Below, in pieces: positions 15,534 to 37,140 of a stretch of 64,000 nucleotides of DNA. Location of the stretch: positions 228,605 through 292,604 of the forward strand of contig JACKFO010000002.1 in NCBI GenBank assembly GCA_020632415.1, given 5' to 3'. Numbering within the stretch: the stretch's first letter is position 1; each line of letters begins with the position of its first letter. Source of the stretch: Candidatus Nomurabacteria bacterium. Lineage in GTDB: Bacteria; Patescibacteriota; Patescibacteriia; UBA1558; GWA2-36-10. Under the pieces are notes generated by a model. That model was given only the letters and a program-made list of their open reading frames with translations, made no database searches and was not told the DNA's origin. Position numbers and translations under genes: made by a program.

Positions 15534-17405
15534 TTATTTGGTAGTTAATAAAATTTTACCAGCCCTCACTTGCTCACTTATTTCTGAGTCAAGATTTGAC
15601 CAGCTAATTAGATTTTCTAAAAATATTTTTTTCTCATCAGATTTCATTAGTGATAACTGAACTTTTTCAGAGCTAATTGGAAATAAGTATATTTCTAATT
15701 GGCCTTCTCTTAGATGAATGCCTATAGACAGCTCTTGCTGTGTGTCTTGAGAAAAATATTGATCAAAAACAAAATTTCCTAGAGAATAAAATATTGGCTT
15801 ATTATTATAGATTTCTAGACCCTGAACAACGTGAGGATGGTGTCCGATCAGGATGTCCGCGCCAGCGTCAATGACTTGGTGTGCTAGATTTTTTTGTAAG
15901 TTATTTATCTGATGTTGATATTCGGTTCCCCAATGTATTTGAACGATTACTAGATCGTGTTCATTTTTAGCTTTTTCTATTTTTTTCAGAGCCTGTTCAA
16001 GATCAAATTGTCCATAAACCATACTAAATCCAAGTAAAGCAACTTTTTTGTCAGCAATATTTATTGTTGTAAGACTGCATTGATCAACGGCTCTATCAGT
16101 ACAACCAGAAAAATCTAAGTCAAGTTTTTTAAGATTCTGAGTAGTCTCTTCTAGTCCTCTAGCTCCTTGATCTCCGAGATGATTATTGGCTAGATTAAAA
16201 AAATTGAAAAAATATTTATTTTTTAATTCTGATAAATATTTTGGGTCAGCAGCAAAATCAATTGTAAGTTCCGGTGGATAATGATCGCCGTTGTTAGTCA
16301 AGGCGCTTTCTAGGTTAGCACTCACTAAGTCATTACCCATAAAAAACCGGTTTTCTCCACCAGCTAAATCATCAAAAACATAGCCAAGCCCATTGTTTTC
16401 AAGTTTATTTTTTACATCTCGATCTAGCATCAAGTCACCAAAAAAAAGCAAATTCATCCCATTTTTTTGAAGATTTTCTCCTTTGGAAAAATAATAAAAT
16501 AAATGACTAGTCCCCGCTTCTTCAGGCGTGTCTAATAAATCGCTAGAATTTGTATGAAAAACTAAGTCAGATTTTTTTGCTTCTATTTTTTCTAAGTAAC
16601 TTAAAATAGTATAAATTGAAGCTGGAGAATCTATTTCTAGCTTGTTTACTCGCTCTAGATCAAAATCTTCTATGACACTTTGGCTTAGCTGATCATGAAA
16701 ATCTGCAACGGATAAGGGTTGATAATGTGAAAAATCAACGCTAGCTAAAATCAAAGTTTTTTCCGGGTCAGTATTGTTTTTTAGATAGTCTACCAAGAGA
16801 TCCAAATCTTTTTTTGGTGTATTAGTTTTTAAGATAATTGGTAAGATTTTAGCTTCTGTTAAGCTGTTTTTAATGAAAGGTACCAAACCAGAAATAGAAT
16901 GTTCATTTAAAAATGGCCCTTCTTCAATGCTGATCTCTTTGTTTTGAGCAAGTTGTTTTCCAAGTTCTAAGTCAGGCAATAATTCTCCGTAAGGAGTTTG
17001 CCATTTATTTTGCGAAATAATGATGTTATTTGTCCCCGTCTGATAATGATTTGGTCCGATCAAAATTACTGTCTGATAATCTTTTTTGGCTAAACCCATA
17101 AACCAAGCGGCCACTTTGTCTTTGACGATTAAATGATGCGGAATAATTCCGCCATAAATTTTTTCATTTGCTATTTTTATGCTACTAGTGCCCGCAGTGT
17201 AAGCTTCATCATAAAATGATCTGTTCATATAATAAGAATCGTGACTCTTGAGTATTAATTCTTCGTTTTTTTTCTGCGGATTGGATATTTTTAGCGAGCC
17301 TAAAAGACTATTATTATTGTAATTTAAATAAACATAAATTAGTCCCACTTGTAAGATAAGCAGGACTAAAGTTAGAGTTATTATTTTATGATATTTTTTA
17401 AGCAT
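15534..17405 (-). CDS. Fusion protein: N-terminal MEMO1/AmmeMemoRadiSam-protein-B-like domain plus C-terminal CapA/PGA_cap metallophosphatase-like domain; N-terminal TM anchor
   Basis: 623 aa; Memo motifs GGIIPHHLI, IGPNHY, NEHSISG, SVDFSHY; CapA motifs LVIVQIHWGTEYQHQ, GADILIGHHPHVVQGLEIY, FYSLGNFVFDQ. Confidence 0.7.
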   Translation of the reverse strand: MLKKYHKIITLTLVLLILQVGLIYVYLNYNNNSLLGSLKISNPQKKNEELILKSHDSYYMNRSFYDEAYTAGTSSIKIANEKIYGGIIPHHLIVKDKVAAWFMGLAKKDYQTVILIGPNHYQTGTNNIIISQNKWQTPYGELLPDLELGKQLAQNKEISIEEGPFLNEHSISGLVPFIKNSLTEAKILPIILKTNTPKKDLDLLVDYLKNNTDPEKTLILASVDFSHYQPLSVADFHDQLSQSVIEDFDLERVNKLEIDSPASIYTILSYLEKIEAKKSDLVFHTNSSDLLDTPEEAGTSHLFYYFSKGENLQKNGMNLLFFGDLMLDRDVKNKLENNGLGYVFDDLAGGENRFFMGNDLVSANLESALTNNGDHYPPELTIDFAADPKYLSELKNKYFFNFFNLANNHLGDQGARGLEETTQNLKKLDLDFSGCTDRAVDQCSLTTINIADKKVALLGFSMVYGQFDLEQALKKIEKAKNEHDLVIVQIHWGTEYQHQINNLQKNLAHQVIDAGADILIGHHPHVVQGLEIYNNKPIFYSLGNFVFDQYFSQDTQQELSIGIHLREGQLEIYLFPISSEKVQLSLMKSDEKKIFLENLISWSNLDSEISEQVRAGKILLTTK

Positions 17406-17406
17406 T

Positions 17407-19215
17407 TTAGTGTAAAGCGCCGCCCCACTCTGTCAGGACAAATCCTTCTCGGATTGGAGTTTTAAATGTTTGAGCTTGGACATTTATTTTCTGATCCAAA
17501 GCTCTGTAGTCCATGAAGACGCGAATAATTGTATCTGGCTTTGGACTGACTTCTAGCGGAGCTAGTTGATCAAACTGTTCTTGAGGAACAAAAGTAATAA
17601 AGTAGTAAGGTTTTTCTTGCATTTTTGGTGCCCAGAAATCAATAAATTCATTGTACTCTTGAGCTATTAAACCTTGTTGAGCTAATTTTTCAGTTAAAAA
17701 TTCAATAATATTTTCTCTAGCCACAACAAAACCTTTGTCTGGCATTTGATAATTTAATCCTAAGCCTTCCCAAAATAAATAAGGATAGTTTTTCTGATCA
17801 TCATAGTTATACAAATTTCCTTCAGGATCAGCTTTGACTAGCCAGCCATTTTTGTATTCCGGCTCAGTAATTGTCAGACCATTATTTGGAAAAACTTTGA
17901 CTAAAATGTCAGTAGTTTTTTCAGGATAAAGGTAGATAACCGGCTTGCCCATTTCAACTGGTGGTACATATTTGGCGTTTTTAAACATGATATACTTTCC
18001 AAAAGGATCTTGCCAAAATAAAACTGGATGATCAGCCAAAAACTCTGAAAAACTTGGCTTATCTTGTCCTTCTGGCGAGTAAATAGTGTCGTACATTGAT
18101 TGAAGTAGAGATTTTTGATCGTTAGCTTGTTCTTTTAAATTAATATCAGCTAATTCATAAATAGCATCGCCAGCAAAAGTTTCCCCGGTCTTTTTTATTT
18201 GAGAGTTATTGCTAATAAAATTAGCATAGTCATAACAGCCGACGTCTGGTGAAAAATAAAATGTTTTATTAAACAGATATTCGTTGTTATTATCAGAGTT
18301 GTCGTCAAATGAAATGTTTAGTTTGTATGGTTTTAAGCCAAAATAAGAACTAGGATCTTGGCTTTCTTCGCCGACGAAGTTTAAGTCTAGGATGTAGTTG
18401 ATCGCTGAGTGGTCATTTTGTTCAGCAATATAGCAGTTGTTAACGTTGTCTTTGTAAATAGTAACTTCATCGTTGCTTAAAATTTCTTGAGCGTTATAAT
18501 CACTTAGTATTTTTTTTGGATCGGTTTCGGCTTTGGTAAATTTATTGTTTGTATTTGGGATATTAACAATCTCTGGATTATCTTCTAGATTCTTAATTGT
18601 TATTAAATTATTAAATTTAAATAAACTTCCATAGCTAAAATAAACAAGACTATTTTCATCATTGAGACTCGATTCGTTTTTGATGATTATCAGCTCTCCA
18701 TCATTATTAATAATTCTGCTGATACCATTTGATAAACAAGGGCCTTCACAAGGTAAAGTGGCCAAATACAAATCTTTTCCTTGGTAAGGGCCTTCGGCTA
18801 TTGTTCCGGCGTTATAAAATGAAACACGATTATAGACAAACTCATATAAAGAGCCGTAGTTATCAATAAAATTTTGATTATTGAGTAAGGACTCATTTAA
18901 ATTACTAGTTTTTTCACCAAAAATTTCATTAGCGTTGCTAATTTTGGCCAACCAATTTTTCCAATCAACTCTAATTTCATTTGTTGCTAATTCTTCTTCC
19001 TCTTCTGAACTATTTGTGCCATTAATAATGTTTTGATTTATAATATTTATGTTTTGTTGATTTTCTAAATTAATTTCTGAATTTTTTTTATTAAATAAAA
19101 AATAGACAGTAAGTAAATTACTGATTATTAATAAAATTACTAAAAGCGAGAGTGTGAGTTTAAAGTGATTTTTTTCTGTCTTTATTTCCACACTCTTTTC
19201 TTCTTGAAAATCCAT
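17407..19215 (-). CDS. Hypothetical membrane-anchored secreted protein, Asn/Ser-rich
   Basis: 602 aa; one N-terminal TM helix then low-complexity N-rich region; 1-nt spacing to the downstream Memo-CapA gene (operon). Confidence 0.5.
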   Translation of the reverse strand: MDFQEEKSVEIKTEKNHFKLTLSLLVILLIISNLLTVYFLFNKKNSEINLENQQNINIINQNIINGTNSSEEEEELATNEIRVDWKNWLAKISNANEIFGEKTSNLNESLLNNQNFIDNYGSLYEFVYNRVSFYNAGTIAEGPYQGKDLYLATLPCEGPCLSNGISRIINNDGELIIIKNESSLNDENSLVYFSYGSLFKFNNLITIKNLEDNPEIVNIPNTNNKFTKAETDPKKILSDYNAQEILSNDEVTIYKDNVNNCYIAEQNDHSAINYILDLNFVGEESQDPSSYFGLKPYKLNISFDDNSDNNNEYLFNKTFYFSPDVGCYDYANFISNNSQIKKTGETFAGDAIYELADINLKEQANDQKSLLQSMYDTIYSPEGQDKPSFSEFLADHPVLFWQDPFGKYIMFKNAKYVPPVEMGKPVIYLYPEKTTDILVKVFPNNGLTITEPEYKNGWLVKADPEGNLYNYDDQKNYPYLFWEGLGLNYQMPDKGFVVARENIIEFLTEKLAQQGLIAQEYNEFIDFWAPKMQEKPYYFITFVPQEQFDQLAPLEVSPKPDTIIRVFMDYRALDQKINVQAQTFKTPIREGFVLTEWGGALH

Positions 19216-19235: not shown

Positions 19236-20480
19236 TTAAGGTAAATAATTCAAAGGATTAACGGGTATGCCATTTAAACGGACTTCTAGATGCAAATGAG
19301 GCCCAGTAGTGAACGGTCCAGCGCCACGAGTGCCCGGCATACCGCCAGAATAGCCAATAATTTGGCCTTTACTGATGAATTGGTCTTCTTCTACGGAAAT
19401 AACATTAACATGGCCATAAACTGATGATAAGCCGTCAGCGTGAACTAGCATGATGTAGCTGTAACCAGTTTGTCCGCCATCTTTAGCCTTAGCAACATAG
19501 CCAGAATCGATAGCTCTAATTGCTGTTCCTTGAGCTGCTTTAATGTCAATTGCTGGATGTTCAAAAATATAACGATAAGGATAATCAGGGTCATGAAAAG
19601 TAGCAGTAACAATTTGAGATGGCACTGGCCACATAAAACCGTCAGAGTTAAGTTCTTGCTGTTCTAATTGACGATTTAGTCTTTCACGGGCAGTTTGTTC
19701 TAAATAGACAATGTCGCTATTAAGCTGCTGTTGTTCTTGTCTGGCTTGTTCAAGTAAAGCTTGATAGCTCGCTTCTTGGCCATGAGTTTGTTCCAAAAGA
19801 TTGGCTTTGACGATTTTTTGACCACTTAAACTTTCTTTTTTACTAGCTAGTCTTTCAGCTAAAACTAATAATTCATCTTGATTTGCTTCTAGCTCTTTTT
19901 TTTCATCAGTCAAAGATAATTTGATTTTTTGCAAGTCCTCTACTCTAGACAGTAAAGTGTCTTGTAGATCTTCCATTCTTTTTATTTCACCGATAAAGTC
20001 ACTAAAATTGTTATTCATCAGCAAAACTTCTAACAAACTAGTATTTTGTTGTTCACGGTGAACGGTTCTTAAAATTTCAGCGATCACTGCTTTTTGTTCG
20101 GAAATTTCTTTTTCTTTAGCTTGAATTTTGATATTTGTATTTTCAATTTGCAAAGCAGCGGTTTCTTTTTCCAGCTCAATAGTTGCCACTTCTAAATTTA
20201 TTTTGGCAATACTTTCGTTAATCGTTGCAACTTGATTTGATAGAGAGTTTAGTTCTCGTTGTTTTGCGGTGATATTTTTTTTGTAGACATCGATTTGTTT
20301 GTTTAGTTCAGTAATTGTCGAACGTTTTTCGTTGATGTCTTGATTGAGTTGCCATAATTCTTGATTGACCTCACTGCCGAAGTTGTATTCAACAGCTTTA
20401 CTAATCGTTGGAAATAAAAAGCTAGCCAAAAAACTAGCTAAGATAAGTCGAGCGATTATTTTGATTTTTATTTTATTCAT
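19236..20480 (-). CDS. M23 family metallopeptidase with N-terminal coiled-coil (EnvC/LytM-like murein hydrolase or activator)
   Basis: 414 aa; signal/TM, about 250 aa coiled coil, C-terminal M23 motifs HADGLSSVYGHV and HLHLEVR. Confidence 0.8.
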   Translation of the reverse strand: MNKIKIKIIARLILASFLASFLFPTISKAVEYNFGSEVNQELWQLNQDINEKRSTITELNKQIDVYKKNITAKQRELNSLSNQVATINESIAKINLEVATIELEKETAALQIENTNIKIQAKEKEISEQKAVIAEILRTVHREQQNTSLLEVLLMNNNFSDFIGEIKRMEDLQDTLLSRVEDLQKIKLSLTDEKKELEANQDELLVLAERLASKKESLSGQKIVKANLLEQTHGQEASYQALLEQARQEQQQLNSDIVYLEQTARERLNRQLEQQELNSDGFMWPVPSQIVTATFHDPDYPYRYIFEHPAIDIKAAQGTAIRAIDSGYVAKAKDGGQTGYSYIMLVHADGLSSVYGHVNVISVEEDQFISKGQIIGYSGGMPGTRGAGPFTTGPHLHLEVRLNGIPVNPLNYLP

Positions 20481-20500
20481 GATCTTTTTAACTATTCTAT

Positions 20501-20511
20501 ATTATAACACA
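20501..20511 (-). promoter_or_regulatory. Extended -10 promoter (TGTGTTATAAT, minus strand) for the M23 peptidase gene
   Basis: Minus-strand reading: ttttGTGTTATAATATAg; the same 17-nt box recurs at 23341-23358 on the plus strand. Confidence 0.4.
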
Positions 20512-20536
20512 AAATAGTTATTTTCTCCAAAATTTT

Positions 20537-21970
20537 TTAAGAGAGTTTATCCACAGCCTGTTTTAGGCGTTTTAAACTTTCCTCTTTTTCCAAAACCCAC
20601 AAGATTTCTGCTGGAGAAGGACTTTTTTCTTGTCCTGACAAAGCAACGCGCACTGGCCAAAATAGATCACCAGGATTTAAGTTATGATCTTGAATTAATT
20701 TATCTAATAGCTCAAATAATTCTTTTTCTTGCCATTGATCTTCTGTTATTTTTGCTAAATTCTCTAGAGCTAGATTTAGACCAAGCTTAGTTTTTTCTAA
20801 ATCACTTTTTTTGAAAATCAACATTTCTGCCGGATAATCAGCTAAATTATAATAAAATGCAGCCGCTTCTTTTAGTTCTGATAAATTGTTTAACCTACTA
20901 CCAGAAACTTTTAAAACTTTTTCTAAATCGTAAGTAGTTGCTAATATCTTTTTTGATTCGTTTAAAATATTTTGGTAAGTAGCGTCTTGGTTATTGATTG
21001 CTTGGCGAATATATTCAGCATTAAACCAGTTTAATTTCTGTAAATCAAAAATTGCCCCAGCTTTATTAATTTTTTCTAGTGAAAATTCTTTTTCTAGGTC
21101 TTTGAGGCTAAAAAATTCTTGATCAGTACCTGGATTCCAGCCCAAAAGTGCTACGTAGTTTAACAAAGCCTCTTTTAGATATCCTTTGGCTAAAAAATCT
21201 TCCACCGCAACATCTCCTTGGCGCTTAGAAAGTTTAGAACGATCGGGGTTTAATAATAATGGCAAGTGGACGAATTCCGGGATTGCATTTTCCCAGCCAA
21301 ATGCTTGGTATAACAAATAGTGTTTTGGCAGCGAAGGAAGCCATTCCTCTCCTCTGATCGCATGACTAATTTGCATTTCATGGTCATCGATGATATTCGC
21401 TAAATGGTAAGTAGGAAAACCATCTGATTTTAAGATAATAAAATCATCTAAATCAAGGTTATTAACGGTGATTTTGCCATAAACCAAATCATTGACTTCC
21501 GTCTTTTTTTCACTTGGGACATAAAAACGAATGACATGTTTTTCTCCTTTAGCCAATTTTTCTTCAATTTCTTCAGGGCTTAAATTTAAGCAATGACGAT
21601 CATAACGAGGCATTTGTTTCTTAGCTTGTTGTGATTCTCTTAAGTTTTCTAAGCGTTCAGCAGAACAAAAACAATAATAAGCCTTTTTTTCGGCAACTAA
21701 GTTTTTTGCGGCTTCTTGGTAAATTTTAATCCTTTTTGATTGAATCATTGGCTCTTGATTGTCGAAATCTAAGCCCATTTCTCGTAAAATTTTGATTAAA
21801 TTTTCAGCTGCTCCTTCGACTAAACGATTTTGATCAGTATCTTCTATTCTTAATAAAAATTGACCATTGTTTTTTTTGGCCCAAAGATAATTAAACAAAG
21901 CCGTGCGTAATCCGCCAATATGTAGGTAGCCAGTTGGACTTGGAGCAAATCTGCTAATAATTTTTTTCAT
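20537..21970 (-). CDS. gltX: Glutamate--tRNA ligase
   Basis: 477 aa; HIGH motif HIGGLRTALFN, KMSKS-type motif KLSKR. Confidence 0.9.
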   Translation of the reverse strand: MKKIISRFAPSPTGYLHIGGLRTALFNYLWAKKNNGQFLLRIEDTDQNRLVEGAAENLIKILREMGLDFDNQEPMIQSKRIKIYQEAAKNLVAEKKAYYCFCSAERLENLRESQQAKKQMPRYDRHCLNLSPEEIEEKLAKGEKHVIRFYVPSEKKTEVNDLVYGKITVNNLDLDDFIILKSDGFPTYHLANIIDDHEMQISHAIRGEEWLPSLPKHYLLYQAFGWENAIPEFVHLPLLLNPDRSKLSKRQGDVAVEDFLAKGYLKEALLNYVALLGWNPGTDQEFFSLKDLEKEFSLEKINKAGAIFDLQKLNWFNAEYIRQAINNQDATYQNILNESKKILATTYDLEKVLKVSGSRLNNLSELKEAAAFYYNLADYPAEMLIFKKSDLEKTKLGLNLALENLAKITEDQWQEKELFELLDKLIQDHNLNPGDLFWPVRVALSGQEKSPSPAEILWVLEKEESLKRLKQAVDKLS

Positions 21971-21975
21971 ATGAA

Positions 21976-22713
21976 TTAATTTTTTTCTAATTTATTTTTT
22001 ATCACCAGAAAAGGAAAAATAATTGTTGCTCGAAAAATTCTTTTTAAACGATTTGGTTGCTTGATTAAGCGCCAGAACCATTCTAATCCGAAGCTGGAAA
22101 ATATTTTTGGTGCTCTTTTTTGTGCTTCGGATAAAAAATCTACAGCACCACCAATTCCAGCAGCAATTTTGACACTGGATAAACGAGTTAAATTTTCAGC
22201 AATCCATTCTTCTTGTTTCGGCGCACCTAAGCCAACTAAAAGTATTTCTGGTTGTAAAATTTGTCCTTTTAAGATAGCTTCTTTTTCGATGGCAACTTGA
22301 AATTCTAGGTTTGGGTATTTTTCTTTTAGTTTAAAGTATAGTTTTTCTGGTTTAGTGAAACCATCTTCTCTTAAGCAAAATAACACCTTGTAGCCCTTGA
22401 TGCTAGCAATTTGTAGCAACATTTCAGTCAAACGGACGCCGGTTAGACGATGATTAAGCGAGACTTTGTGTCCATTAAGCTGCAAAGCCCAGATTATTCC
22501 CGTGCCATCAATAGTAGCTAGACTTGTTTCTTTTAAGATAGTTTTAAATTTTTTATTTTTTTGTGCTTCTAAAATAAATTCTGGATTGACAGTAGCTATT
22601 TGATGTTGTTGGTCAGAAGTTAAAAAATCAAACAAAAGCTCTTTGGCTAAATGTTCAGGAAGATAGTTTACCTTGACTCCTAAAATTTCAAACTCTTGCA
22701 TATTATAAATCAA
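21976..22713 (-). CDS. WecG/TagA/CpsF family glycosyltransferase (GT26)
   Basis: 245 aa; LVGLGAPKQEEWIAEN...GIGGAVDFLSE..KRAP..GLEWFWRL closely matches TagA/WecG C-terminal signature. Confidence 0.85.
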   Translation of the reverse strand: MIYNMQEFEILGVKVNYLPEHLAKELLFDFLTSDQQHQIATVNPEFILEAQKNKKFKTILKETSLATIDGTGIIWALQLNGHKVSLNHRLTGVRLTEMLLQIASIKGYKVLFCLREDGFTKPEKLYFKLKEKYPNLEFQVAIEKEAILKGQILQPEILLVGLGAPKQEEWIAENLTRLSSVKIAAGIGGAVDFLSEAQKRAPKIFSSFGLEWFWRLIKQPNRLKRIFRATIIFPFLVIKNKLEKN

Positions 22714-23266
22714 AAGTATTTAAAACTGTGTATTGCGGGCCGCCTTTTTGTAAAACACTTTCTTGCAATTCAAAGTGATCAACATAAGATAAGCCGTGAA
22801 CTTGCCAATCCAAAAAACTTTGCAAGTCTTTTCTTTTTACACCAGGATAAACTTTAGCAAGCGTTAAGTGTGGAGTAAAGTTACGTACTTCTTTATGAGC
22901 TAAACCGACTTGCCATAGTTGTTCTTCGATTGAGTTATAAAGTTTTTGAAGTTGTTCATTTTTTTTGAAGCCTAAAGACAAAACTCGCGGTGTTTGATCT
23001 GGCTCGTTTTCAGGAAAAATTTGAGTTTTTTCTATTTCTAATTCAAAAGCCTCGACATTTTGATGAGCAAGGTCTAAATTTTTGATAATTTCATCTAAAT
23101 TGTCAATCGGTGTGTCACCTAAAAATTTAATCGTTAAATGAAAATTTTCAAGTTTTGTGAATTTTAATCTGCTCTTAGGTAAATCTAAAAGAGCTAAATC
23201 TTTATTTATTTTTTTAGCTAAGAGCTGGTCAATTGGAATACTAATAAATAGTCTTTGATGTTCCAT
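22703..23266 (-). CDS. thpR: RNA 2',3'-cyclic phosphodiesterase (2H family, ThpR/LigT)
   Basis: 187 aa; two H-x-T-x motifs (FHLTIKFLG and PHLTLAK). Confidence 0.8.
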   Translation of the reverse strand: MEHQRLFISIPIDQLLAKKINKDLALLDLPKSRLKFTKLENFHLTIKFLGDTPIDNLDEIIKNLDLAHQNVEAFELEIEKTQIFPENEPDQTPRVLSLGFKKNEQLQKLYNSIEEQLWQVGLAHKEVRNFTPHLTLAKVYPGVKRKDLQSFLDWQVHGLSYVDHFELQESVLQKGGPQYTVLNTFDL

Positions 23267-23399: not shown

Positions 23400-24839
23400 A
23401 TGAATAAAAAAATACAACGTATTTTAAGTTTTACAGTTTTGATTTTTAGTTTGCCAAATTTGGTTTTGGCAGCCAACATTGATTATTCAAATATCATTTC
23501 TGACGCAGAAGCAGAAAACTATCAATCAATGAACCAGGTTCAAATTAGAAATTTTTTACAAAGTAAAAATAGCACTTTGGCTAATTATTGGTATACTGGC
23601 TATAATCCTAGCCCTTTTGAAGAAATTATTCCCGAAGATCAAAGAACAACCGCTGATTATAAACAACGATCAGCAGTTGAAATTATTTATAATGCCGCTT
23701 GGGAAGCTCAGATTAACCCTCAGTTTTTGTTGACTATGTTGCAAAAAGAAATGAGTCTAATTGAAGATCCGGAGCCTACAGAAAGGCAATATGCTTTTGC
23801 TATGGGCTATTATTGTTTTGATGGTCAATCTTGTAATCCTCGTTGGCGTGGTTTTGGCAAACAAGTACGAGCAACCGCCTTGCAGTTTAGAGATTATCTA
23901 GACAACATTGAATCACGTGCTTATCAGACAGGAAAAACTTTTGTCATTGAAGGACAGTCAATTACTCCAGCAAACAATGTCACCGCTGGTCTTTATAACT
24001 ACACACCACATTTACACGGAAATTCTTTATTTAAAACTATTTGGGATCGTTATGAGTTTGGCGGTGAAACAACAGAAGAAATTATTTTAAATGGCGGCAT
24101 TATTCCAGAAGGTTCTTTGGTTCGAGCTCGTGACGGTGAAGATCTAGAAACAATTTTCTTGATCCATAACAATCAAAAGCAACCTTTTGCTTCTAATGCA
24201 GCTTTAGTTTCTCGTTATCATTTAGATCAAGTTTTAAATGTTCCTAGCGCAGAATTAGAAAAATTTCCTTTAGGCGCTAGTATTAATTATCCAGCCTACT
24301 CTATTTTGATGGCACCAAATGGTAATAAATATCTTTTGGATGGCCTAGAAAAAAGACTAATTGCCAACGATGAAGTTTTTAGAAATTTAGGTTTTAATCC
24401 AGCAGAAGTAGAAGAAGTAAGCTCTGAAGAATTGGCAAGTATTGAAGATGGTCAAATCATCGAGGATCCTAGTTTGAGTCCAGTAGCTCAGTTGCTAAGA
24501 GATACCTCTACTGGCGGAGTTTATTATGCAAAAGATGGTAAAAAATATCCGATAGTTGACCCAGAAATCATTAGTATTAACTATCCTGATCTAAAAATAG
24601 TTAATGCCACGACAATTCAGCTTGATCAATTACAAAAAGTAAGTTCCGCTAAAATAAGCGATGGCACTCTTTTAATCAGCGATGAAAGTAATCAGGTTTA
24701 TGTTATTGCTAACGGCAAAAGACGTTGGATCGTTGATCAAGAAACTTTTGAAGGCTTAGGCTATTCTTGGTCAAATATCAAAAAAGTTAGTGATCGAGTT
24801 TTAAAATTACACCAAGTTGGTGAACCAATAAGTTTATAA
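23400..24839 (+). CDS. Hypothetical secreted protein (signal peptide)
   Basis: 479 aa; N-terminal signal peptide LIFSLPNLVLAANI; no recognisable catalytic motifs. Confidence 0.5.
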   Translation: MNKKIQRILSFTVLIFSLPNLVLAANIDYSNIISDAEAENYQSMNQVQIRNFLQSKNSTLANYWYTGYNPSPFEEIIPEDQRTTADYKQRSAVEIIYNAAWEAQINPQFLLTMLQKEMSLIEDPEPTERQYAFAMGYYCFDGQSCNPRWRGFGKQVRATALQFRDYLDNIESRAYQTGKTFVIEGQSITPANNVTAGLYNYTPHLHGNSLFKTIWDRYEFGGETTEEIILNGGIIPEGSLVRARDGEDLETIFLIHNNQKQPFASNAALVSRYHLDQVLNVPSAELEKFPLGASINYPAYSILMAPNGNKYLLDGLEKRLIANDEVFRNLGFNPAEVEEVSSEELASIEDGQIIEDPSLSPVAQLLRDTSTGGVYYAKDGKKYPIVDPEIISINYPDLKIVNATTIQLDQLQKVSSAKISDGTLLISDESNQVYVIANGKRRWIVDQETFEGLGYSWSNIKKVSDRVLKLHQVGEPISL

Positions 24840-24840
24840 T

Positions 24841-25632
24841 ATGATTGTTTTTGCAAGTTTTGTTCCCCACTCTCCCCTTTTGATTCCAGAAGTGGGTAAA
24901 AATAATCTAGCTCAACTACAAAATACGGTTGATGCTTATCAAAAATTAGAGCAAGATATTTATGCTGCTAAGCCAGATGTTATTTTTTTGATTGCTCGTC
25001 ATGCTGATATTTTGCCAGCCTCTTTTTCGATCAATCAACGTCCAGAAATTAACATTGATTTTAAAAAATTTGGCGATTTGGTGACTAAAATTAAAATAGA
25101 CAATGATATTGCCCTTGGTTATCAAATTAAAGAAGCAGTCGAAACCTCTATGCCGATTACCCTCACTTCACAGGAGTTATTGGACTACAGCGCCGGCGTA
25201 CCTTTGTATTACCTGACTAGACATTTGCCAAAAATCAAAGTTGTTCCGATTAGCTATAGTTCTTTGGACAACCAAAAACATTTTGATTTTGGTAAACACC
25301 TTAAAGAAATGGCTAATCGTTCTGGAAAACGCGTAGCAATAATTGCTGCCGGAGATTTGTCTCATAAATTACATCAAGACTCTCCTGCTGGCTATTCTCC
25401 TCGCGCTCAAGAATTTGATCAACAATTGATGAAAGATTTAAATGAAAATAAAATTGACGATCTTTTGAACTTAGAAAGATCTTTTGTTGAAGAAGTGTCA
25501 GCGATTGATGGTTTTTATTCCTTGCTGATTTTATTAGGAGCAATAAAAAATCTTAATTACCGTTCTGATCGTTTGAGTTATCAAGCGCCATTTGGCATCG
25601 GCTATTTAGTGCAAAATTTTAAACTAAGATAA
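24841..25632 (+). CDS. LigB/MEMO1-superfamily protein (class III extradiol dioxygenase-like)
   Basis: 263 aa; N-terminal FVPHSPLL and AIIAAGDLSHKLH resemble DODA/LigB-Memo metal-binding motifs; assignment tentative. Confidence 0.45.
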   Translation: MIVFASFVPHSPLLIPEVGKNNLAQLQNTVDAYQKLEQDIYAAKPDVIFLIARHADILPASFSINQRPEINIDFKKFGDLVTKIKIDNDIALGYQIKEAVETSMPITLTSQELLDYSAGVPLYYLTRHLPKIKVVPISYSSLDNQKHFDFGKHLKEMANRSGKRVAIIAAGDLSHKLHQDSPAGYSPRAQEFDQQLMKDLNENKIDDLLNLERSFVEEVSAIDGFYSLLILLGAIKNLNYRSDRLSYQAPFGIGYLVQNFKLR

Positions 25633-32070: not shown

Positions 32071-33030
32071 TTAAGGAATTAATTCACTCCAAAAACAATT
32101 GGCAATGTCATTATTACAGGTATATCTGACTTTGCGCGTTGCTTTGCTGCTACTAGCCGTTGTTTCAATGTTTGAGTTGCATTCTAAGTCTTCGCCACAA
32201 CCTTCCGGCAAAGGCGTAATTATTAAGTTTGAATCATCAAAACTAAACATAAAACCAGAATCAACTGTGTGTCTTTCAGCGAAATACAGCTCCACTACAT
32301 TATCTCCAGCACTTAAAAATATATCACCGGTTTTAGTAAATGAAGCGTGAGTTCCGCTATTATTAACGACTACTATGCCATCAACCAAAACCCAAGAATC
32401 ATCGTCAGAAGCAAGCGCATACGCGTAGTCACCATCGCTTGGAGCACTTACTCTGGCTCGCCAATGGTTTCCAAAAAAATAATCATTAGCATAACCCTCT
32501 TTATCTTCCCAGATTGTTCCATCATAAGGAAACCAAGTATGTAGATCAAAAATTACGTTAGCGTCTATTTGCTCGTGAGTTTTATAAATATCATCATACC
32601 AATCATGTTGCGTTGGGGTGGCTGTCGGACCCGGATAAGGATCGACTTGCATGTCAGGGTGACTCGAAGAATAGTTAAAATATTCCCCCCACCAACCACT
32701 ATCTGGTACAAATTGACATTCCACTGGCGGTGTACAAGCGCCACTTTCTGATTCAACAAATTCGCTGTCAATATTAGAATTATTAATTATAAGGTTATCA
32801 AAAGTCAGATTATTTGGATCATGACGAATTTGTAGCAAAGCTTCTTGAGCGCCAACTTCAGCGTTGTAAAAATTTTCTATTGTTTGAGAAAAAGATTTTA
32901 AAGAAGCCTTATTATTTAGAGCAATAATTGTCGTTGACAAAACAATGGACATTAAACCAGTAGCCACAATCATTGCCGCTATTAAGGCCGCGGCTCCTTG
33001 TTTATTTTTTGTGATTTTTTTTAGCTGCAT
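32071..33030 (-). CDS. PA14-domain protein with N-terminal hydrophobic anchor (putative pilus-associated adhesin)
   Basis: 319 aa; N-terminal TM ALIAAMIVATGLMSIVL; C-terminal PA14-like segment GDYAYALASDDDSWVLVDGIVVV..GDIFLSAGDNVVELYFAERH. Confidence 0.55.
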   Translation of the reverse strand: MQLKKITKNKQGAAALIAAMIVATGLMSIVLSTTIIALNNKASLKSFSQTIENFYNAEVGAQEALLQIRHDPNNLTFDNLIINNSNIDSEFVESESGACTPPVECQFVPDSGWWGEYFNYSSSHPDMQVDPYPGPTATPTQHDWYDDIYKTHEQIDANVIFDLHTWFPYDGTIWEDKEGYANDYFFGNHWRARVSAPSDGDYAYALASDDDSWVLVDGIVVVNNSGTHASFTKTGDIFLSAGDNVVELYFAERHTVDSGFMFSFDDSNLIITPLPEGCGEDLECNSNIETTASSSKATRKVRYTCNNDIANCFWSELIP

Positions 33031-33036
33031 TATTTT

Positions 33037-33561
33037 TTAACGAATGCTGATAAAAGTTTCGAAATCCTGGTTTAAATAGTTATAAACATCTTCTGGTGCT
33101 CCGATGCTTAGATTAAAATTAATCAGAATTCCTTTGTTAAGATTTCCTTGCCAATCGGATACTGGAGTCAAAATAAAATTATTTACCTCCACTCTTTCAG
33201 AATTAAGAACATTTTCAAGTGCTTGGCCACCGCCAACATTAGGAATTTCTCTATAAATTAAGTTATTATCTTCTACAACAAAAACAAAATCTTCTCCTGC
33301 TTCGGAATAAAAAATTATTTGTTCTGAGTCGGGTCTAACATCATCAAAAACATTTACGCTGTGAATTTTATTACTAACTTGATTCATAATAAAACGAGCG
33401 TCATTGTAAACCAAATCAGAAGTTTTTAGTTTTTTACGAATATTAAAATTAGCCATGATTAAGCTACTGATTGTAGTCAAAAGCATTGCTGTAATAAAAA
33501 TATAGACCAATGTTTCAATTAGACTAAAAGCTTTTTGGTTGTTTTTTCTTTTTAAAATCAT
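33037..33561 (-). CDS. Type IV pilin-like protein / pseudopilin (prepilin-type N-terminal cleavage/methylation domain)
   Basis: 174 aa; class III signal KAFSLIETLVYIFI. Confidence 0.7.
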   Translation of the reverse strand: MILKRKNNQKAFSLIETLVYIFITAMLLTTISSLIMANFNIRKKLKTSDLVYNDARFIMNQVSNKIHSVNVFDDVRPDSEQIIFYSEAGEDFVFVVEDNNLIYREIPNVGGGQALENVLNSERVEVNNFILTPVSDWQGNLNKGILINFNLSIGAPEDVYNYLNQDFETFISIR

Positions 33562-35456
33562 GGATAAGTAGAATAACTAATCGTCACTTCTTCTAGCGTT
33601 GGTGCTTGTAAATTTGCTTGACTATCTAAAAATAACTTATAACGAAAATATCTTTGATTTAAATGAGCATTATAATTTATTAGCTCTCCAGCAGCGTCAG
33701 AATAATAAGAACTACTACTGCCATCTGGACCTAAATAATTCCAAGGTCCATTAACATTGTTACTGGTGGCAATTTGAAATTTAATATCTGTGTTTCCTGG
33801 TTCTGAACCAGACCAAGAAATCCAATTATAAGTTACTTCGTTGGATCCAGTATCAAAAGTAGAAGATTCAAGTTCACCGTTAGAAGCATAACCACAATCT
33901 GAAACCTCGGTGGAAATAATAAAAAATTCACTACTATTACTACTAGTTGCGGCATAGATTACAGCGCAGTTAGCTGACATACCTAAAACATTTCCACTTA
34001 AATCAAAGCTAGAAACTTCACTGATGCTGCTAGGAAAACTAACGTCAATTACATTTAATTCAGAATTTAAAAAATTTGTTCCCAATAAAGCGTAAGGACC
34101 AACAATGGCGAAAGAATGAATTTTTTCACCAGCCTCATAAGATCCGATGAATACTGGATCTGTTGGATCAGAAATTTCAAAAATAAAGAATTCTGCTCCA
34201 GAGCCATTATTTTCTGTAGAGATGTAAGCTCTGGTTCCCCTGACAAAAACATCAGTGCCTTTTAATGACCCAGGTAGATTATAGCCACCGATAATTTGTA
34301 AATTAGCTGGATTTGTCACATCAACAATTTGTAATTCTTGGCTACTATCTTCAGTTGCTACATAAACATTGTTTCCTGATAGATACAATTCTTTGGTCTG
34401 ACTATTTAAACTAATTTTATCCAACATTTGCGGATCAGTAGGATCAGAAATATTAAAAGAATGCAAATCATCTTCTTGTAAAATATATAATTCTGTTTCA
34501 TTCACTACTAAATCAGAAGCATTTTCATTGCCAGATAAATCAATGCTAGCAACAATATATGGGCTATGAGGATTAGAAATATCAATTACTCTTAACTCAG
34601 CATCATTTTTTTTGGTTGAAAGATAAGCGTAATCACCTTGGGCAACGACCGAGGTCACTGAGCTTCCTATATTTAAAGAGGCTATTTGGTAGGGATTATG
34701 AATATCGCTAACATCTAAGATGTAAAATTCAGAACCAGAAGAATTATTTTCAGTGACTAAATAAGCCAAGTTATTTAATTCATAAACATCGTTTTCATCA
34801 AAATTTCCCGGTAAGTCAAAATTAGCCGTCGTCGTTGCTTGATTCCAGTCTAAAAATCCAGAAAGCAAGGTAATAATTCCTGGAACAGTGGTATCTAAAC
34901 CACCGCTTTGGTTAAAAAATCTAGTTTCATCAGACCATTCACTTTGTCCAGAGCCGCCAATCCAGTCACTTTGACTGAAGCGATCTGCTTGCCAACGACT
35001 AAGATAAGTTTCTAAAGTAACATTTTTTTCATCAGCTCCGCTTAACCAGGAAATGGTAATTGTTATTTTTTTACTATCAGGATCGACAAAACCACTTTCG
35101 ACAATCTCGCCAAAAACATGCCCATTTTCACTACTTGCTCTTTCTACGGGAGCAATATTAATTGTTCTGGTATATTTTTCTTCTAATAATTCGCTGTTTG
35201 CAACTAAATTCCAAGCATTAGAAGCTAATTCTAAATGCCAGTCTCCATTATTTAATTCTGTCCAATCAACTAATTTGATCGCTTCTAAACTTTCGGCAGC
35301 ATAAAAGTAAGCTTTTGTTTTGTTTTCGTTTAATTTCCAGATCTCGGAATTAAAAACGTTCATCGTCAAAATAACTGAAATAATCACGGCGATAAAAGAA
35401 ATTGCTACTAGCAATTCAATTAATGAAAAACCATTTTTTTCTTTTTGAAGAATCAT
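33558..35456 (-). CDS. Large pilin-like protein: prepilin-type N-terminus fused to LVIVD-repeat beta-propeller
   Basis: 632 aa; NGFSLIELLVAISF prepilin signal; repeated motifs ELRVIDISNP, ELQIVDVTNP, EFFIFEISDP, ELNVIDVSFP, EFYILDVSDIHNP. Confidence 0.65.
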   Translation of the reverse strand: MILQKEKNGFSLIELLVAISFIAVIISVILTMNVFNSEIWKLNENKTKAYFYAAESLEAIKLVDWTELNNGDWHLELASNAWNLVANSELLEEKYTRTINIAPVERASSENGHVFGEIVESGFVDPDSKKITITISWLSGADEKNVTLETYLSRWQADRFSQSDWIGGSGQSEWSDETRFFNQSGGLDTTVPGIITLLSGFLDWNQATTTANFDLPGNFDENDVYELNNLAYLVTENNSSGSEFYILDVSDIHNPYQIASLNIGSSVTSVVAQGDYAYLSTKKNDAELRVIDISNPHSPYIVASIDLSGNENASDLVVNETELYILQEDDLHSFNISDPTDPQMLDKISLNSQTKELYLSGNNVYVATEDSSQELQIVDVTNPANLQIIGGYNLPGSLKGTDVFVRGTRAYISTENNGSGAEFFIFEISDPTDPVFIGSYEAGEKIHSFAIVGPYALLGTNFLNSELNVIDVSFPSSISEVSSFDLSGNVLGMSANCAVIYAATSSNSSEFFIISTEVSDCGYASNGELESSTFDTGSNEVTYNWISWSGSEPGNTDIKFQIATSNNVNGPWNYLGPDGSSSSYYSDAAGELINYNAHLNQRYFRYKLFLDSQANLQAPTLEEVTISYSTYP

Positions 35457-35935
35457 TAATTTATTTTCCCCCCATTTTCGATATTGATAAATCTTTTTAC
35501 TTCTGGATTATTTTTATAGATTAGCTCTACTGTTCCGGTATTCGCTGTTTCTCCGCTAAATTTTGTAAAAATTAAATCTGGACTAAAACCACCAATACCG
35601 TCTGATAAACTATTTTCTGGATTTGAAATTAAAGCATTTTTTAGCTCGATTAGTTCATTTTCTTCTGCTAATTCATTGTAGCTATTGCCGCTAAAAATTA
35701 TGTAAGCATTTTCTTCTAAGTGTATGCCCCAATTTTTTTCGTTTTCAGCCGAAATAGCTGCCTGTCTAACTTCGATAATTTTACTTTTAAACTCATCAAC
35801 TTGATTAATTAACAAGACACTACTTTTCCACTGAAAAAAAATAGAATAAGCCATTCCAGTGATAATTCCAGCGATGGCCATGGTTACGATAATTTCAATA
35901 AAAGTTATGCCTTTGTTATTCATTTTATTCACCAA
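35456..35935 (-). CDS. Type IV pilin-like protein / pseudopilin
   Basis: 159 aa; prepilin signal KGITFIEIIVTMAIAGI. Confidence 0.7.
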   Translation of the reverse strand: MVNKMNNKGITFIEIIVTMAIAGIITGMAYSIFFQWKSSVLLINQVDEFKSKIIEVRQAAISAENEKNWGIHLEENAYIIFSGNSYNELAEENELIELKNALISNPENSLSDGIGGFSPDLIFTKFSGETANTGTVELIYKNNPEVKRFINIENGGKIN

Positions 35936-37133: not shown

Positions 37134-37140
37134 ATTTATT

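What the first reader, a model, noticed from the sequence alone, without database searches (positions are those of the whole stretch)
15534..19215. MEMO1-like domain fused to a CapA-type metallophosphatase, co-transcribed with a 602-aa N-rich secreted protein
The N-terminal half of the 623-aa protein has the diagnostic Memo/AmmeMemoRadiSam-protein-B motifs (GGIIPHHLI, IGPNHY, NEHSISG, SVDFSHY). The C-terminal half is an unmistakable CapA/PGA_cap calcineurin-like phosphoesterase (LVIVQIHWGTEYQHQ, GHHPHVVQGLEIY, FYSLGNFVFDQ). The protein is anchored by an N-terminal TM helix. In poly-gamma-glutamate producers CapA is a membrane component of the capsule synthesis machinery, and Memo proteins are metal-dependent with unclear substrates. 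Their fusion, plus an operonic 602-aa extracytoplasmic protein, suggests an uncharacterised envelope-polymer processing module. A second LigB/Memo-superfamily gene lies 7 kb away at 24841.
Basis: partly seen in the sequence, partly recalled or inferred. Interest (0 to 1): 0.55.

Follow-up and report, generated by a model that had tools for sequence, protein, structure and literature searches.

The report
Cell-surface Memo–CapA enzyme with unknown partner
A tiny symbiotic-type bacterium carries a membrane-anchored, outward-facing protein that fuses two poorly understood metal-enzyme domains (Memo-like and CapA/MslH-like), always paired with a neighbouring surface protein whose conserved end domain has no known relative; the pair is widespread but unstudied, and it is not a poly-glutamate capsule machine.

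Summary
ORF 15534-17405(-) encodes a 623-aa protein with an N-terminal TM helix, a Memo domain (PF01875, 5e-28) and a PGA_cap domain (PF09587, 1e-61). It lies 1 nt downstream of a 602-aa, Asn-rich, TM-anchored protein that has no Pfam or NCBIfam match.

- **Distribution.** At least 120 full-length relatives carry the fusion, mainly in Patescibacteria, with some in Atribacteria and Caldisericum.
- **Partner.** The 602-aa family is adjacent in 12 of 24 fusion loci, in either gene order. Its C-terminal ~185-aa domain defines a large unannotated family: 6563 representatives at 50% identity, and no significant PDB fold match. In 5 of 5 diverse members examined, including Treponema zioleckii, it sits directly beside a Memo-domain gene.
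- **Which half is the core.** In four of those distant members (three lineages) the Memo residues are all kept, while the PGA_cap catalytic residues are lost. Memo plus the new domain is therefore the core, and an active PGA_cap is an add-on kept in the CPR-type fusion. PGA_cap has its own recurrent partner, DUF3160.
- **PGA_cap half.** It is closest to the peptide epimerase MslH and keeps 7 of 8 of its catalytic or metal residues.
- **What it is not.** No PgsB/PgsC, AMMECR1 or radical-SAM neighbours were found.

Best reading: an extracytoplasmic envelope-modifying two-protein module, with the substrate unknown.

The parts
15534..17405 (-). Gene for the 623-aa membrane-anchored Memo-PGA_cap fusion protein.
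   Evidence: ORF. Pfam and NCBIfam hits. At least 120 full-length homologues with the same two domains. AF2 model with pLDDT 91.4 and pTM 0.86.
17319..17393 (-). N-terminal signal-anchor TM helix (about residues 5-29). Lys and His residues precede it, so the bulk of the protein is predicted to lie outside the cell.
   Evidence: Hydropathy maximum at residues 8-27. Model helix at 2-29. L15 and G21 are nearly invariant in alignment A1. Distant relatives carry lipoprotein-type signal peptides instead.
16533..17183 (-). Memo-like domain (residues ~75-291). Invariant residues are P89-H90-H91, P118-N-H120, E168-H169, D224-F-S-H227, D259-S260 and T299-S-H301.
   Evidence: PF01875, 5e-28. TIGR04336, 9e-32. 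Foldseek match to MEMO1 7kq8/7l5c/3bcz, E about 1e-13, TM 0.75. Profile alignment to MEMO1. Residue conservation.
15759..16451 (-). PGA_cap (CapA/PgsA/MslH-type, calcineurin-like fold) domain (residues 319-549). Invariant residues are G323-D324, N364-L-E366, N408-H409..D412, H491-W-G..E495, G521-H-H523-P-H525 and S541-L-G-N544.
   Evidence: PF09587, 1.2e-61. Sequence match to MslH, PDB 8gq9. Foldseek match to MslH, E 5e-18. Residue mapping to MslH Asp11, Glu44, Asn87, His88, Asp91, His259 and His295 uses.
15537..15758 (-). C-terminal beta-rich extension of the fusion (residues 550-623). It is conserved within the fusion family.
   Evidence: Model strands at 557-586 plus helices at 589-614, with pLDDT above 85. 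Aligned in all full-length homologues.
17407..19215 (-). Gene for the 602-aa partner protein. It is translationally coupled to the fusion gene, with a 1-nt gap.
   Evidence: 178 homologues, none with a function name. Adjacent to the fusion in 12 of 24 loci.
19081..19170 (-). TM anchor of the partner (residues ~16-45). It is followed by an Asn/Glu-rich low-confidence linker (residues 46-78, nt 18982-19080).
   Evidence: Model helix at 16-45 and pLDDT below 50 for residues 46-70. Hydropathy. Relatives have signal peptides or lipoboxes at this position.
17971..18978 (-). Variable beta-rich N-terminal ectodomain of the partner (residues ~80-415). It is Asn-rich and has no detectable homology to known families.
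   Evidence: AF2 model. No Pfam hit even at E 10. In other lineages it is replaced by SLH, TSP3 or TIG modules, or by shorter regions.
17410..17964 (-). Conserved C-terminal domain of the partner (residues 418-602). Its motifs are AECGKPVIYLYPE, YPYLFWEG, APL..P.PDT.IRVFMDY and GFTVVEWGG. This is the part that always accompanies Memo-domain genes.
19236..20480 (-). Upstream gene for a coiled-coil M23 peptidoglycan metallopeptidase (PcsB/EnvC/DipM-like), 20 nt from the partner gene. It is probably in the same transcript, but the link is conserved only in the closest relative.
   Evidence: PF01551, 6e-23, plus the PcsB coiled coil. NCBIfam M23 peptidoglycan-hydrolase families. Synteny only in L001.

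Best explanation
The two genes encode a conserved two-protein module that works outside the cytoplasmic membrane, on the cell envelope.

**Protein 1 (623 aa)** is held in the membrane by one N-terminal helix and displays two metal-enzyme domains packed into one rigid body.
- The first is a Memo-type centre built from invariant His, Asp and Glu residues: PHH, PNH, EH, DFSH, DS and TSH.
- The second is a CapA/MslH-type centre. Like the lasso-peptide epimerase MslH, it lacks parts of the two-metal phosphatase site. It keeps the single-metal ligands and both His/Asp acid-base pairs.

**Protein 2 (602 aa)** is also anchored. It presents a lineage-variable beta-rich ectodomain and a strongly conserved C-terminal domain of apparently new fold, rich in invariant Glu, Arg, Tyr and Trp residues.

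**Shown**
- The domain identities and the outward topology.
- Conservation of the catalytic-type residues.
- Tight and widespread gene pairing of the Memo domain with the new C-terminal domain.
- A second, independent pairing of PGA_cap with DUF3160.
- Absence of PGA-synthetase and AmmeMemoRadiSam partners.

**Inferred**
- The partner's C-terminal domain docks on or feeds substrate to the Memo centre.
- The PGA_cap half performs metal-assisted proton abstraction (epimerisation or a related reaction). Its target would be an amino-acid unit that carries a free alpha-carboxylate in a wall-bound peptide. The most plausible targets are peptidoglycan stem peptides or gamma-glutamyl-type links.
- The module therefore edits or matures the envelope rather than synthesising a capsule.
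For: - **Domains and fold:**
- **Outward topology:** TM helix. Relatives have lipoboxes or signal peptides. Partner relatives carry SLH, TSP3 and TIG surface modules. SLH proteins flank the fusion in L020.
- **Fusion conserved:** at least 120 full-length proteins at 42-67% identity, and 23 genome loci including Atribacteria and Caldisericum.
- **Partner adjacency:** 12 of 24 loci, in both gene orders.
- **C-domain always beside a Memo gene:** 5 of 5 look-ups, including Treponema zioleckii.
- **Residue pattern:** the Memo residues are kept but the PGA_cap residues are lost in four distant members (three lineages). All 37 CPR-type fusions keep every PGA_cap residue.
- **MslH equivalence:** 7 of 8 residues map onto the protein, using the MslH mechanism described in PMC10406935. 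The CapA-as-epimerase proposal is in PMC8179263.
- **Peptidoglycan hints:** a PGA_cap-M23 peptidase fusion in L077, and an M23 gene directly upstream in the window.
- **Missing partners:** no PgsB/PgsC outside Bacillaceae, and no other recurrent neighbour.
Against: - No substrate evidence of any kind exists. The peptidoglycan link rests on one domain fusion and one poorly conserved neighbour.
- The MslH His261 ligand is Gly493 here, so the metal site may differ.
- The MEMO1 Cys244 ligand has no Cys equivalent, so Memo-type chemistry may differ.
- 7 of 24 fusion loci have neither partner adjacent.
- A physical interaction between the two proteins was not modelled.
- The rest of the genome could not be searched for PgsB/PgsC.
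Confidence: 0.4

Rival explanations
1. It is a genuine CapA/PgsA, the membrane subunit of a poly-gamma-glutamate synthetase, with an extra Memo domain.
For: The PGA_cap score is strong. The N-terminal anchor with an external domain matches PgsA topology. JGI names some homologues as PGA synthesis proteins.
Against: PgsB and PgsC were found next to PGA_cap only in the four Bacillaceae loci. None was found in the other 76 loci or in the 64-kb window. Distant module members have lost the PGA_cap catalytic residues yet keep the module. Small Patescibacteria genomes are not known to make PGA (own knowledge).
Confidence: 0.05
2. It is the B component of an AmmeMemoRadiSam system, as NCBI annotates it, working with AMMECR1 and a radical-SAM enzyme.
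For: TIGR04336 scores 110 bits against a cut-off of 26. NCBI uses this name for many homologues.
Against: No AMMECR1 or radical-SAM gene lies within about 8 kb in the window. None appears in the Pfam-annotated neighbourhoods of five relatives. None forms a recurrent neighbour cluster in 24 loci. The protein is extracytoplasmic, whereas radical-SAM partners are cytoplasmic. The MEMO1 equivalog NF001987 scores 90 bits against a cut-off of 295.
Confidence: 0.03
3. The PGA_cap half is a surface phosphoesterase of the calcineurin-like superfamily. It would scavenge or remodel phosphate esters such as nucleotides, teichoic acids or host lipids for a nutritionally dependent cell.
For: The fold belongs to the metallophosphoesterase superfamily. 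Foldseek also matches YmdB-type phosphodiesterases, 5'-nucleotidases and purple acid phosphatases. The GD, NNH..D and GHHPH motifs are intact. Patescibacteria depend on scavenging (own knowledge).
Against: The best structural and sequence relative is the epimerase MslH, not a phosphatase. As in MslH, the Asn next to the NLE glutamate (YmdB Asn40) is absent. The His of motif I is also absent, so a two-metal site is unlikely. Gly493 further replaces a metal-ligand His.
Confidence: 0.15
4. The fusion enzyme post-translationally modifies its partner protein, for example at the conserved C-terminus. This would parallel MslH epimerising the C-terminal residue of its precursor peptide.
For: The gene pairing is strict. 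The conserved domain sits at the extreme C-terminus in nearly all of the 150 best relatives, ending a few residues after the invariant EWGG. MslH acts on a C-terminal residue.
Against: The last 2-5 residues after EWGG are not conserved (ALH, ARR, VLR, RLY, TSSDGWQIK). The C-terminal strand is part of a confidently folded domain. The pairing persists where PGA_cap is catalytically dead.
Confidence: 0.07
5. The module has no enzymatic role. It is a structural or adhesive surface complex whose enzyme-like folds serve only as scaffolds.
For: Human MEMO1 was first described as a non-enzymatic phosphopeptide-binding scaffold (own knowledge). The PGA_cap half has decayed in some lineages.
Against: Every metal-binding or catalytic-type residue of the Memo half is invariant across very distant lineages. 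Those of PGA_cap are invariant in all 37 CPR-type sequences. That pattern is what selection on an active site produces.
Confidence: 0.05

Closest known systems
MslH, lasso-peptide C-terminal Trp epimerase (PDB 8GQ9; PMC10406935)
   Same: It is the best sequence and structure match for the C-terminal half. It shares the PGA_cap family and calcineurin-like fold. Equivalents of Asp11, Glu44, Asn87, His88, Asp91, His259 and His295 are invariant here.
   Different: Identity is only about 18% over the fold. The NCBIfam equivalog scores 72 bits against a cut-off of 700. MslH His261 corresponds to Gly493. MslH is a soluble cytoplasmic RiPP enzyme with a precursor peptide and RRE partner. This protein is membrane-anchored, faces outward, is fused to Memo, and has no RiPP genes nearby.
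CapA/PgsA of the PgsBCA(E) poly-gamma-glutamate synthetase
   Same: Same Pfam family (PF09587). Same topology, with an N-terminal anchor and an external catalytic-type domain.
   Different: There are no PgsB/PgsC neighbours. This protein has an extra Memo domain and different conserved partners: the 602-aa family or DUF3160.
MEMO1 (human; PDB 3BCZ, 7KQ8, 7L5C)
   Same: Same fold, TM 0.75. Equivalents of His49, His81, Asp189 and His192 are conserved.
   Different: There is no equivalent of the Cys244 ligand. This protein has additional invariant residues: a second His (PHH), D259-S260 and T299-S-H301. It is extracytoplasmic and fused to PGA_cap. MEMO1 is a cytosolic eukaryotic protein.
AmmeMemoRadiSam system protein B (TIGR04336)
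   Same: The HMM score passes the model's low cut-off.
   Different: The defining three-gene context is absent and the cellular compartment differs.
LigAB-type class III extradiol dioxygenases
   Same: Same superfamily fold for the N-terminal half. Both are two-protein arrangements in which a second polypeptide accompanies the catalytic LigB-like domain.
   Different: The partner here is unrelated to LigA, being a beta-rich plus alpha/beta domain with no PDB match. Many hosts are anaerobes, for example the rumen Treponema, so oxygen-dependent ring cleavage is unlikely (inference).

Membership tests
Pfam Memo (PF01875) | HMM score above the gathering threshold. | tested here: met
   98.5 bits against 27, residues 88-290. 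The fold matches MEMO1, E about 1e-13.
MEMO1 family (metal site) | Metal-site residues His49, His81 and Cys244, plus Asp189 and His192. | tested here: inconclusive
   H90, H120, D224 and H227 align and are invariant. Cys244 falls in a segment missing here, and no Cys is conserved. The MEMO1 sequence beyond residue 241 was recalled from memory. NF001987 scores 90 bits against a cut-off of 295.
AmmeMemoRadiSam system protein B (TIGR04336) | HMM score above the cut-off. | tested here: met
   110.4 bits against 26.
AmmeMemoRadiSam system protein B (TIGR04336) | Genomic association with AMMECR1 (protein A) and a radical-SAM enzyme. | tested here: not met
   None was found among Pfam-scanned neighbours in the window, in five Pfam-annotated loci, or as a recurrent cluster in 24 loci. 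Whole genomes were not searched.
Pfam PGA_cap (PF09587) | HMM score above the gathering threshold. | tested here: met
   208.9 bits against 27, covering profile positions 2-255 of 255.
CapA/PgsA of the PGA synthetase | Operon with PgsB (amide ligase) and PgsC. | tested here: not met
   blastp with Bacillus PgsB and PgsC hits only L063, L074, L076 and L079. None was found in the other 76 loci or in the window. The rest of the genome was not searchable.
CapA/PgsA of the PGA synthetase | N-terminal membrane anchor with an external domain. | tested here: met
MslH-type peptide epimerase | Metal ligands Glu44, Asn87, His259 and His261, plus the His88/Asp91 and His295/Asp11 dyads. | tested here: inconclusive
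   E366, N408, H491, H409, D412, H525 and D324 are invariant. His261 corresponds to Gly493, and the invariant E495 lies nearby. The equivalog score of 72 bits against 700 is not met.
MslH-type peptide epimerase | Epimerase activity on a peptide with a free alpha-carboxylate. | not testable with these tools
   This requires biochemistry.
Dinuclear calcineurin-like phosphoesterase | The full motif set: DxH, GDxxDR, GNH(D/E), H and GHxH, with ligands for both metals. | tested here: not met
   The first motif is GD-L-M-L-DR, with no His. The Asn that follows the Glu in YmdB (E39-N40) is Ser or Gly here. One ligand His is Gly493.
DUF3160 (PF11369), as the identity of the partner | Homology of the 602-aa protein to DUF3160. 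| tested here: not met
   hhalign probability is below 3% for both A3 and A2 against A4. There is no Pfam hit.

The most novel reading that the evidence does not exclude
The Memo-type domain and the unannotated KPVIYLYPE/LFWEG/EWGG domain form a widespread, previously undescribed extracytoplasmic enzyme system of bacteria. It is present from Patescibacteria to Spirochaetes. Its partner has a new fold, and its chemistry differs from any characterised LigB/Memo enzyme. In Patescibacteria it is joined to an active MslH-like epimerase domain that edits D/L stereochemistry of wall peptides outside the cell. This would give the first tractable bacterial handle on what Memo proteins do.
Probability: 0.3. 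Interest if true: 0.75.

Novelty: new variant of a known kind. Interest (0 to 1): 0.5.

Why it matters
**Two families without a settled function.** Memo proteins are conserved from bacteria to humans, where MEMO1 is involved in cell migration and metal homeostasis, yet they lack an agreed biochemical function. CapA/PgsA has been a "function-unknown" subunit for decades.

**What this module adds.** A membrane-anchored, outward-facing fusion of both domains is strictly paired with a large unannotated domain family (about 6500 representatives at 50% identity). This points to a common but unstudied envelope-modification system. It is frequent in Patescibacteria, whose surface biology underlies their episymbiotic lifestyle. 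Its presence in a cultured Treponema offers an experimental entry point.

**Annotation errors.** Current database names for these proteins, "AmmeMemoRadiSam system protein B" and "poly-gamma-glutamate synthesis protein", are probably misleading. NCBI's start site also removes the membrane anchor.

Tried and rejected
- **Family scans of the partner.** Pfam at E up to 10 on both halves, NCBIfam and PADLOC gave no real hit.
- **Memo half against the PDB.** A single-sequence search found nothing. Only the profile reached MEMO1.
- **DUF3160 as a relative of the 602-aa family.** Rejected by hhalign.
- **CapB/CapC neighbours.** Rejected.
- **AMMECR1 or radical-SAM neighbours.** Not found.
- **Literature.** Searches for PGA_cap with Memo, DUF3160, AmmeMemoRadiSam, PGA_cap alone, and Memo-like protein with Patescibacteria returned no functional study.
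- **The partner's C-terminus as an MslH-like substrate.** Considered, and down-weighted because the terminal residues vary.
- **The nearby LigB gene as part of the module.** Considered, and rejected because it is syntenic only in the closest relative.
- **Relative orientation of the two active sites.** Could not be examined, because model coordinates are not exposed.

Full report
**1. Checking the observation**

The two ORFs are exactly where the finding places them: 15534-17405(-), 623 aa, and 17407-19215(-), 602 aa. The stop codon of the upstream gene is separated from the ATG of the downstream gene by a single base, so the two are very likely translated from one transcript.

The window has about 33% G+C throughout. 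It is identical to an 842-kb contig labelled Candidatus Nomurabacteria bacterium, a Patescibacteria/CPR genome.

Pfam finds Memo (PF01875, 98.5 bits, residues 88-290) and PGA_cap (PF09587, 208.9 bits, residues 319-549) in the 623-aa protein. It finds nothing in the 602-aa protein. NCBIfam gives TIGR04336 (110 bits) and a partial match to the MslH epimerase model.

The N-terminal TM helix is supported by hydropathy, by the predicted structure (helix 2-29), and by conservation of the hydrophobic N-terminus in 36 homologues. NCBI's deposited protein starts at Met60 and lacks this anchor.

The 602-aa protein has one TM segment and 11.3% Asn, against 5.9% for the window's ORFs. The gene at 24841 is a LigB-family protein.

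**2. The fusion protein**

An AlphaFold2 model built on 37 homologues is confident (pLDDT 91.4, pTM 0.86). This implies that the two domains pack as one body.

Foldseek against the PDB gives the lasso-peptide epimerase MslH as best hit for the C-terminal half (E 5e-18). It gives human MEMO1 for the N-terminal half (E about 1e-13, TM 0.75). LigB-type dioxygenases and YmdB-type phosphoesterases follow. By sequence, MslH is the only solved relative for a single-sequence search. A profile also reaches MEMO1.

*PGA_cap half.* The MslH paper (PMC10406935) defines the metal ligands Glu44, Asn87, His259 and His261. It also defines two catalytic dyads, His88/Asp91 and His295/Asp11. Mapping through the HMMER alignment, and for Asp11 by motif inference (the N-terminal GD), gives E366, N408, H491, H409/D412 and H525/D324. 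All are invariant in the 37-sequence alignment. His261 corresponds to the invariant Gly493, with the invariant Glu495 two residues later.

As in MslH, ligands needed for a second metal are missing. There is no His in the first motif, and Ser or Gly stands where YmdB has Asn40. The domain therefore looks like a one-metal acid/base enzyme rather than a classical dinuclear phosphoesterase. The authors of the first MslH paper proposed that CapA itself is a peptide epimerase in PGA synthesis (PMC8179263).

*Memo half.* Equivalents of MEMO1 His49, His81, Asp189 and His192 are invariant (H90, H120, D224, H227). The Cys244 ligand has no counterpart. The MEMO1 C-terminal sequence used was recalled from memory. 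This subfamily also has an invariant second His (H91), E168-H169, D259-S260 and T299-S-H301.

**3. Distribution and neighbours**

A protein search returned at least 120 full-length relatives (42-67% identity, 580-650 aa), nearly all carrying both Pfam domains. Almost all are from Patescibacteria.

A scan of one genome per species gave 80 loci. I called ORFs in these and searched them with HMMs built from each half of each protein. Twenty-two loci have the fusion, and one (L007) has the two halves as adjacent ORFs. Hosts include Patescibacteria, Atribacteria (L017, L021), Caldisericum (L022) and Peribacteria (L020).

Clustering of neighbouring ORFs found only two recurrent neighbours.
- The 602-aa family is directly adjacent in 12 of 24 loci. 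It lies upstream in nine and downstream in three.
- A second family is adjacent in five loci that lack the first. Pfam identifies it as DUF3160 (E 1e-113 to 1e-200).

DUF3160 is unrelated to the 602-aa family by profile-profile comparison. It also sits next to stand-alone PGA_cap genes in Clostridia, Bacillota, Falkowbacteria and Paludibacter loci.

PgsB and PgsC, taken from a Bacillus locus as positive control, were found only in the four Bacillaceae loci. No AMMECR1 or radical-SAM neighbour was seen.

**4. The partner protein**

The 602-aa family has 178 detectable relatives, none with a functional name. The alignment shows a variable N-terminal part and a very conserved C-terminal domain of about 185 aa. 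Its motifs are AECGKPVIYLYPE, YPYLFWEG and GFTVVEWGG.

A profile of the C-domain finds 5844 proteins in the 90%-identity clusters. An exhaustive phmmer search finds 6563 representatives at 50% identity, 2483 of them below 1e-30. The domain sits at the extreme C-terminus in nearly all of the 150 best hits. Some relatives carry SLH, TSP3 or TIG modules, or lipoprotein signals, all typical of surface proteins.

I looked up the genomic context of five diverse members. These were two short CPR-like proteins, one stand-alone domain, Treponema zioleckii, and a further lineage. In all five the gene directly abuts a Memo-domain gene of 477-596 aa.

In four of these Memo proteins (three lineages) the C-terminal half is a degenerate PGA_cap or is unrecognisable. 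Every invariant residue of the Memo half is retained, including DS and TSH. The PGA_cap catalytic residues are all replaced.

The evolutionarily stable unit is therefore the Memo domain plus the new C-terminal domain. An active PGA_cap domain is an addition maintained in the CPR-type fusion.

**5. Interpretation**

*What the evidence shows.* This is an extracytoplasmic, membrane-anchored two-protein module with two apparently functional metal centres. It is conserved across phyla, and it is unlinked to PGA synthesis and to the AmmeMemoRadiSam system.

*What is inferred.*
- The partner's C-domain probably works with the Memo centre, given the strict gene pairing and its invariant Glu, Arg, Tyr and Trp residues.
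- The PGA_cap half probably works like MslH. It would abstract the alpha-proton of an amino-acid unit whose free alpha-carboxylate binds the metal.
- Such units exist at peptide C-termini, in gamma-linked glutamate, and in peptidoglycan stem peptides.

Hints toward peptidoglycan are weak. One PGA_cap-M23 peptidase fusion exists (L077). An M23 peptidoglycan metallopeptidase gene lies directly upstream in the window, but that neighbour is conserved only in the closest relative.

*Rivals.* A surface phosphoesterase role for PGA_cap remains possible. The other rivals are modification of the partner itself, a genuine CapA role, an AmmeMemoRadiSam role, and a purely structural complex. Each is less well supported, for the reasons given under the rival explanations.

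**6. Novelty**

No paper in the searchable library discusses the fusion, DUF3160 function, or the partner family. The proteins are in public databases under automatic names. Both enzyme domains belong to known superfamilies.

I therefore rate this as a new variant of known kinds, accompanied by an undescribed partner domain. Interest is moderate. It would rise if the Memo-partner complex and its chemistry were confirmed.

Noticed in passing
window 17228-17405 (-): NCBI's deposited protein for this gene (P0001, 564 aa) starts at Met60 and omits the conserved TM anchor. Homologues support the upstream ATG at 17405.
   Followed up: yes
L006, L017, L021, L022, L032, L064, L071, L072, L078: DUF3160 (PF11369) genes of about 740-880 aa are a recurrent direct neighbour of PGA_cap genes, whether or not PGA_cap is fused to Memo. 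Hosts include Atribacteria, Caldisericum, Clostridia, Bacillota, Paludibacter and some Patescibacteria. This gene link appears to be undescribed.
   Followed up: partly
L077:1506-3353: A single ORF fuses PGA_cap to a C-terminal Peptidase_M23 domain (PF01551, 2e-28). L059 has PGA_cap plus DUF192. L043 has an EncFtn/rubrerythrin-like N-terminus plus PGA_cap. L066, L071 and L073 have a C-terminal FG-GAP-like region.
   Followed up: partly
L007:4326-9944 and L029:415-5940: Bacterial alpha-2-macroglobulin-like proteins of about 1850 aa, each with a HINT/intein-type domain inserted near the bait and thioester region, lie immediately upstream of the Memo-PGA_cap gene.
   Followed up: no
L007:9941-11959: Memo (296 aa) and PGA_cap (374 aa) are separate adjacent ORFs here, 3 nt apart. 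This is either a natural split of the fusion or a frameshift or assembly error.
   Followed up: no
window 23400-24839 (+) and 24841-25632 (+): A 479-aa signal-peptide protein with no Pfam or NCBIfam match is immediately followed by a cytoplasmic LigB-family protein (PF02900, 1e-38). The pair is syntenic in L001.
   Followed up: partly
window 19236-23266 (-): The module lies at the end of a tightly spaced minus-strand gene string: LigT-like 2'-5' RNA ligase, WecG/TagA glycosyltransferase, GltX, a coiled-coil M23 peptidase, the partner, then the fusion. Across the convergent intergenic region, on the plus strand, lie XerC/D-like, FtsQ-like (POTRA), alanine racemase-like and SerRS genes. Some of these assignments are by eye.
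   Followed up: partly
L007, L010, L012, L014-L016, L024, L025, L028, L029, L035, L042, L054, L070: Several MAG records titled 'uncultured Gammaproteobacteria bacterium' (binchicken and SRP co-assemblies) carry genes most similar to Patescibacteria homologues. The taxonomic labels look unreliable.
   Followed up: no
window 32071-38874 (-): This cluster holds several short proteins with prepilin-like N-termini (FSLIE/FTFIE motifs), plus PilC-like and PilB-like genes. It looks like a type IV pilus locus, as is common in Patescibacteria. The assignment was made by eye only.
   Followed up: no
P0362 (1120 aa): One relative contains three copies of the partner's C-terminal domain in a single polypeptide, unlike the usual single C-terminal copy.
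   Followed up: no
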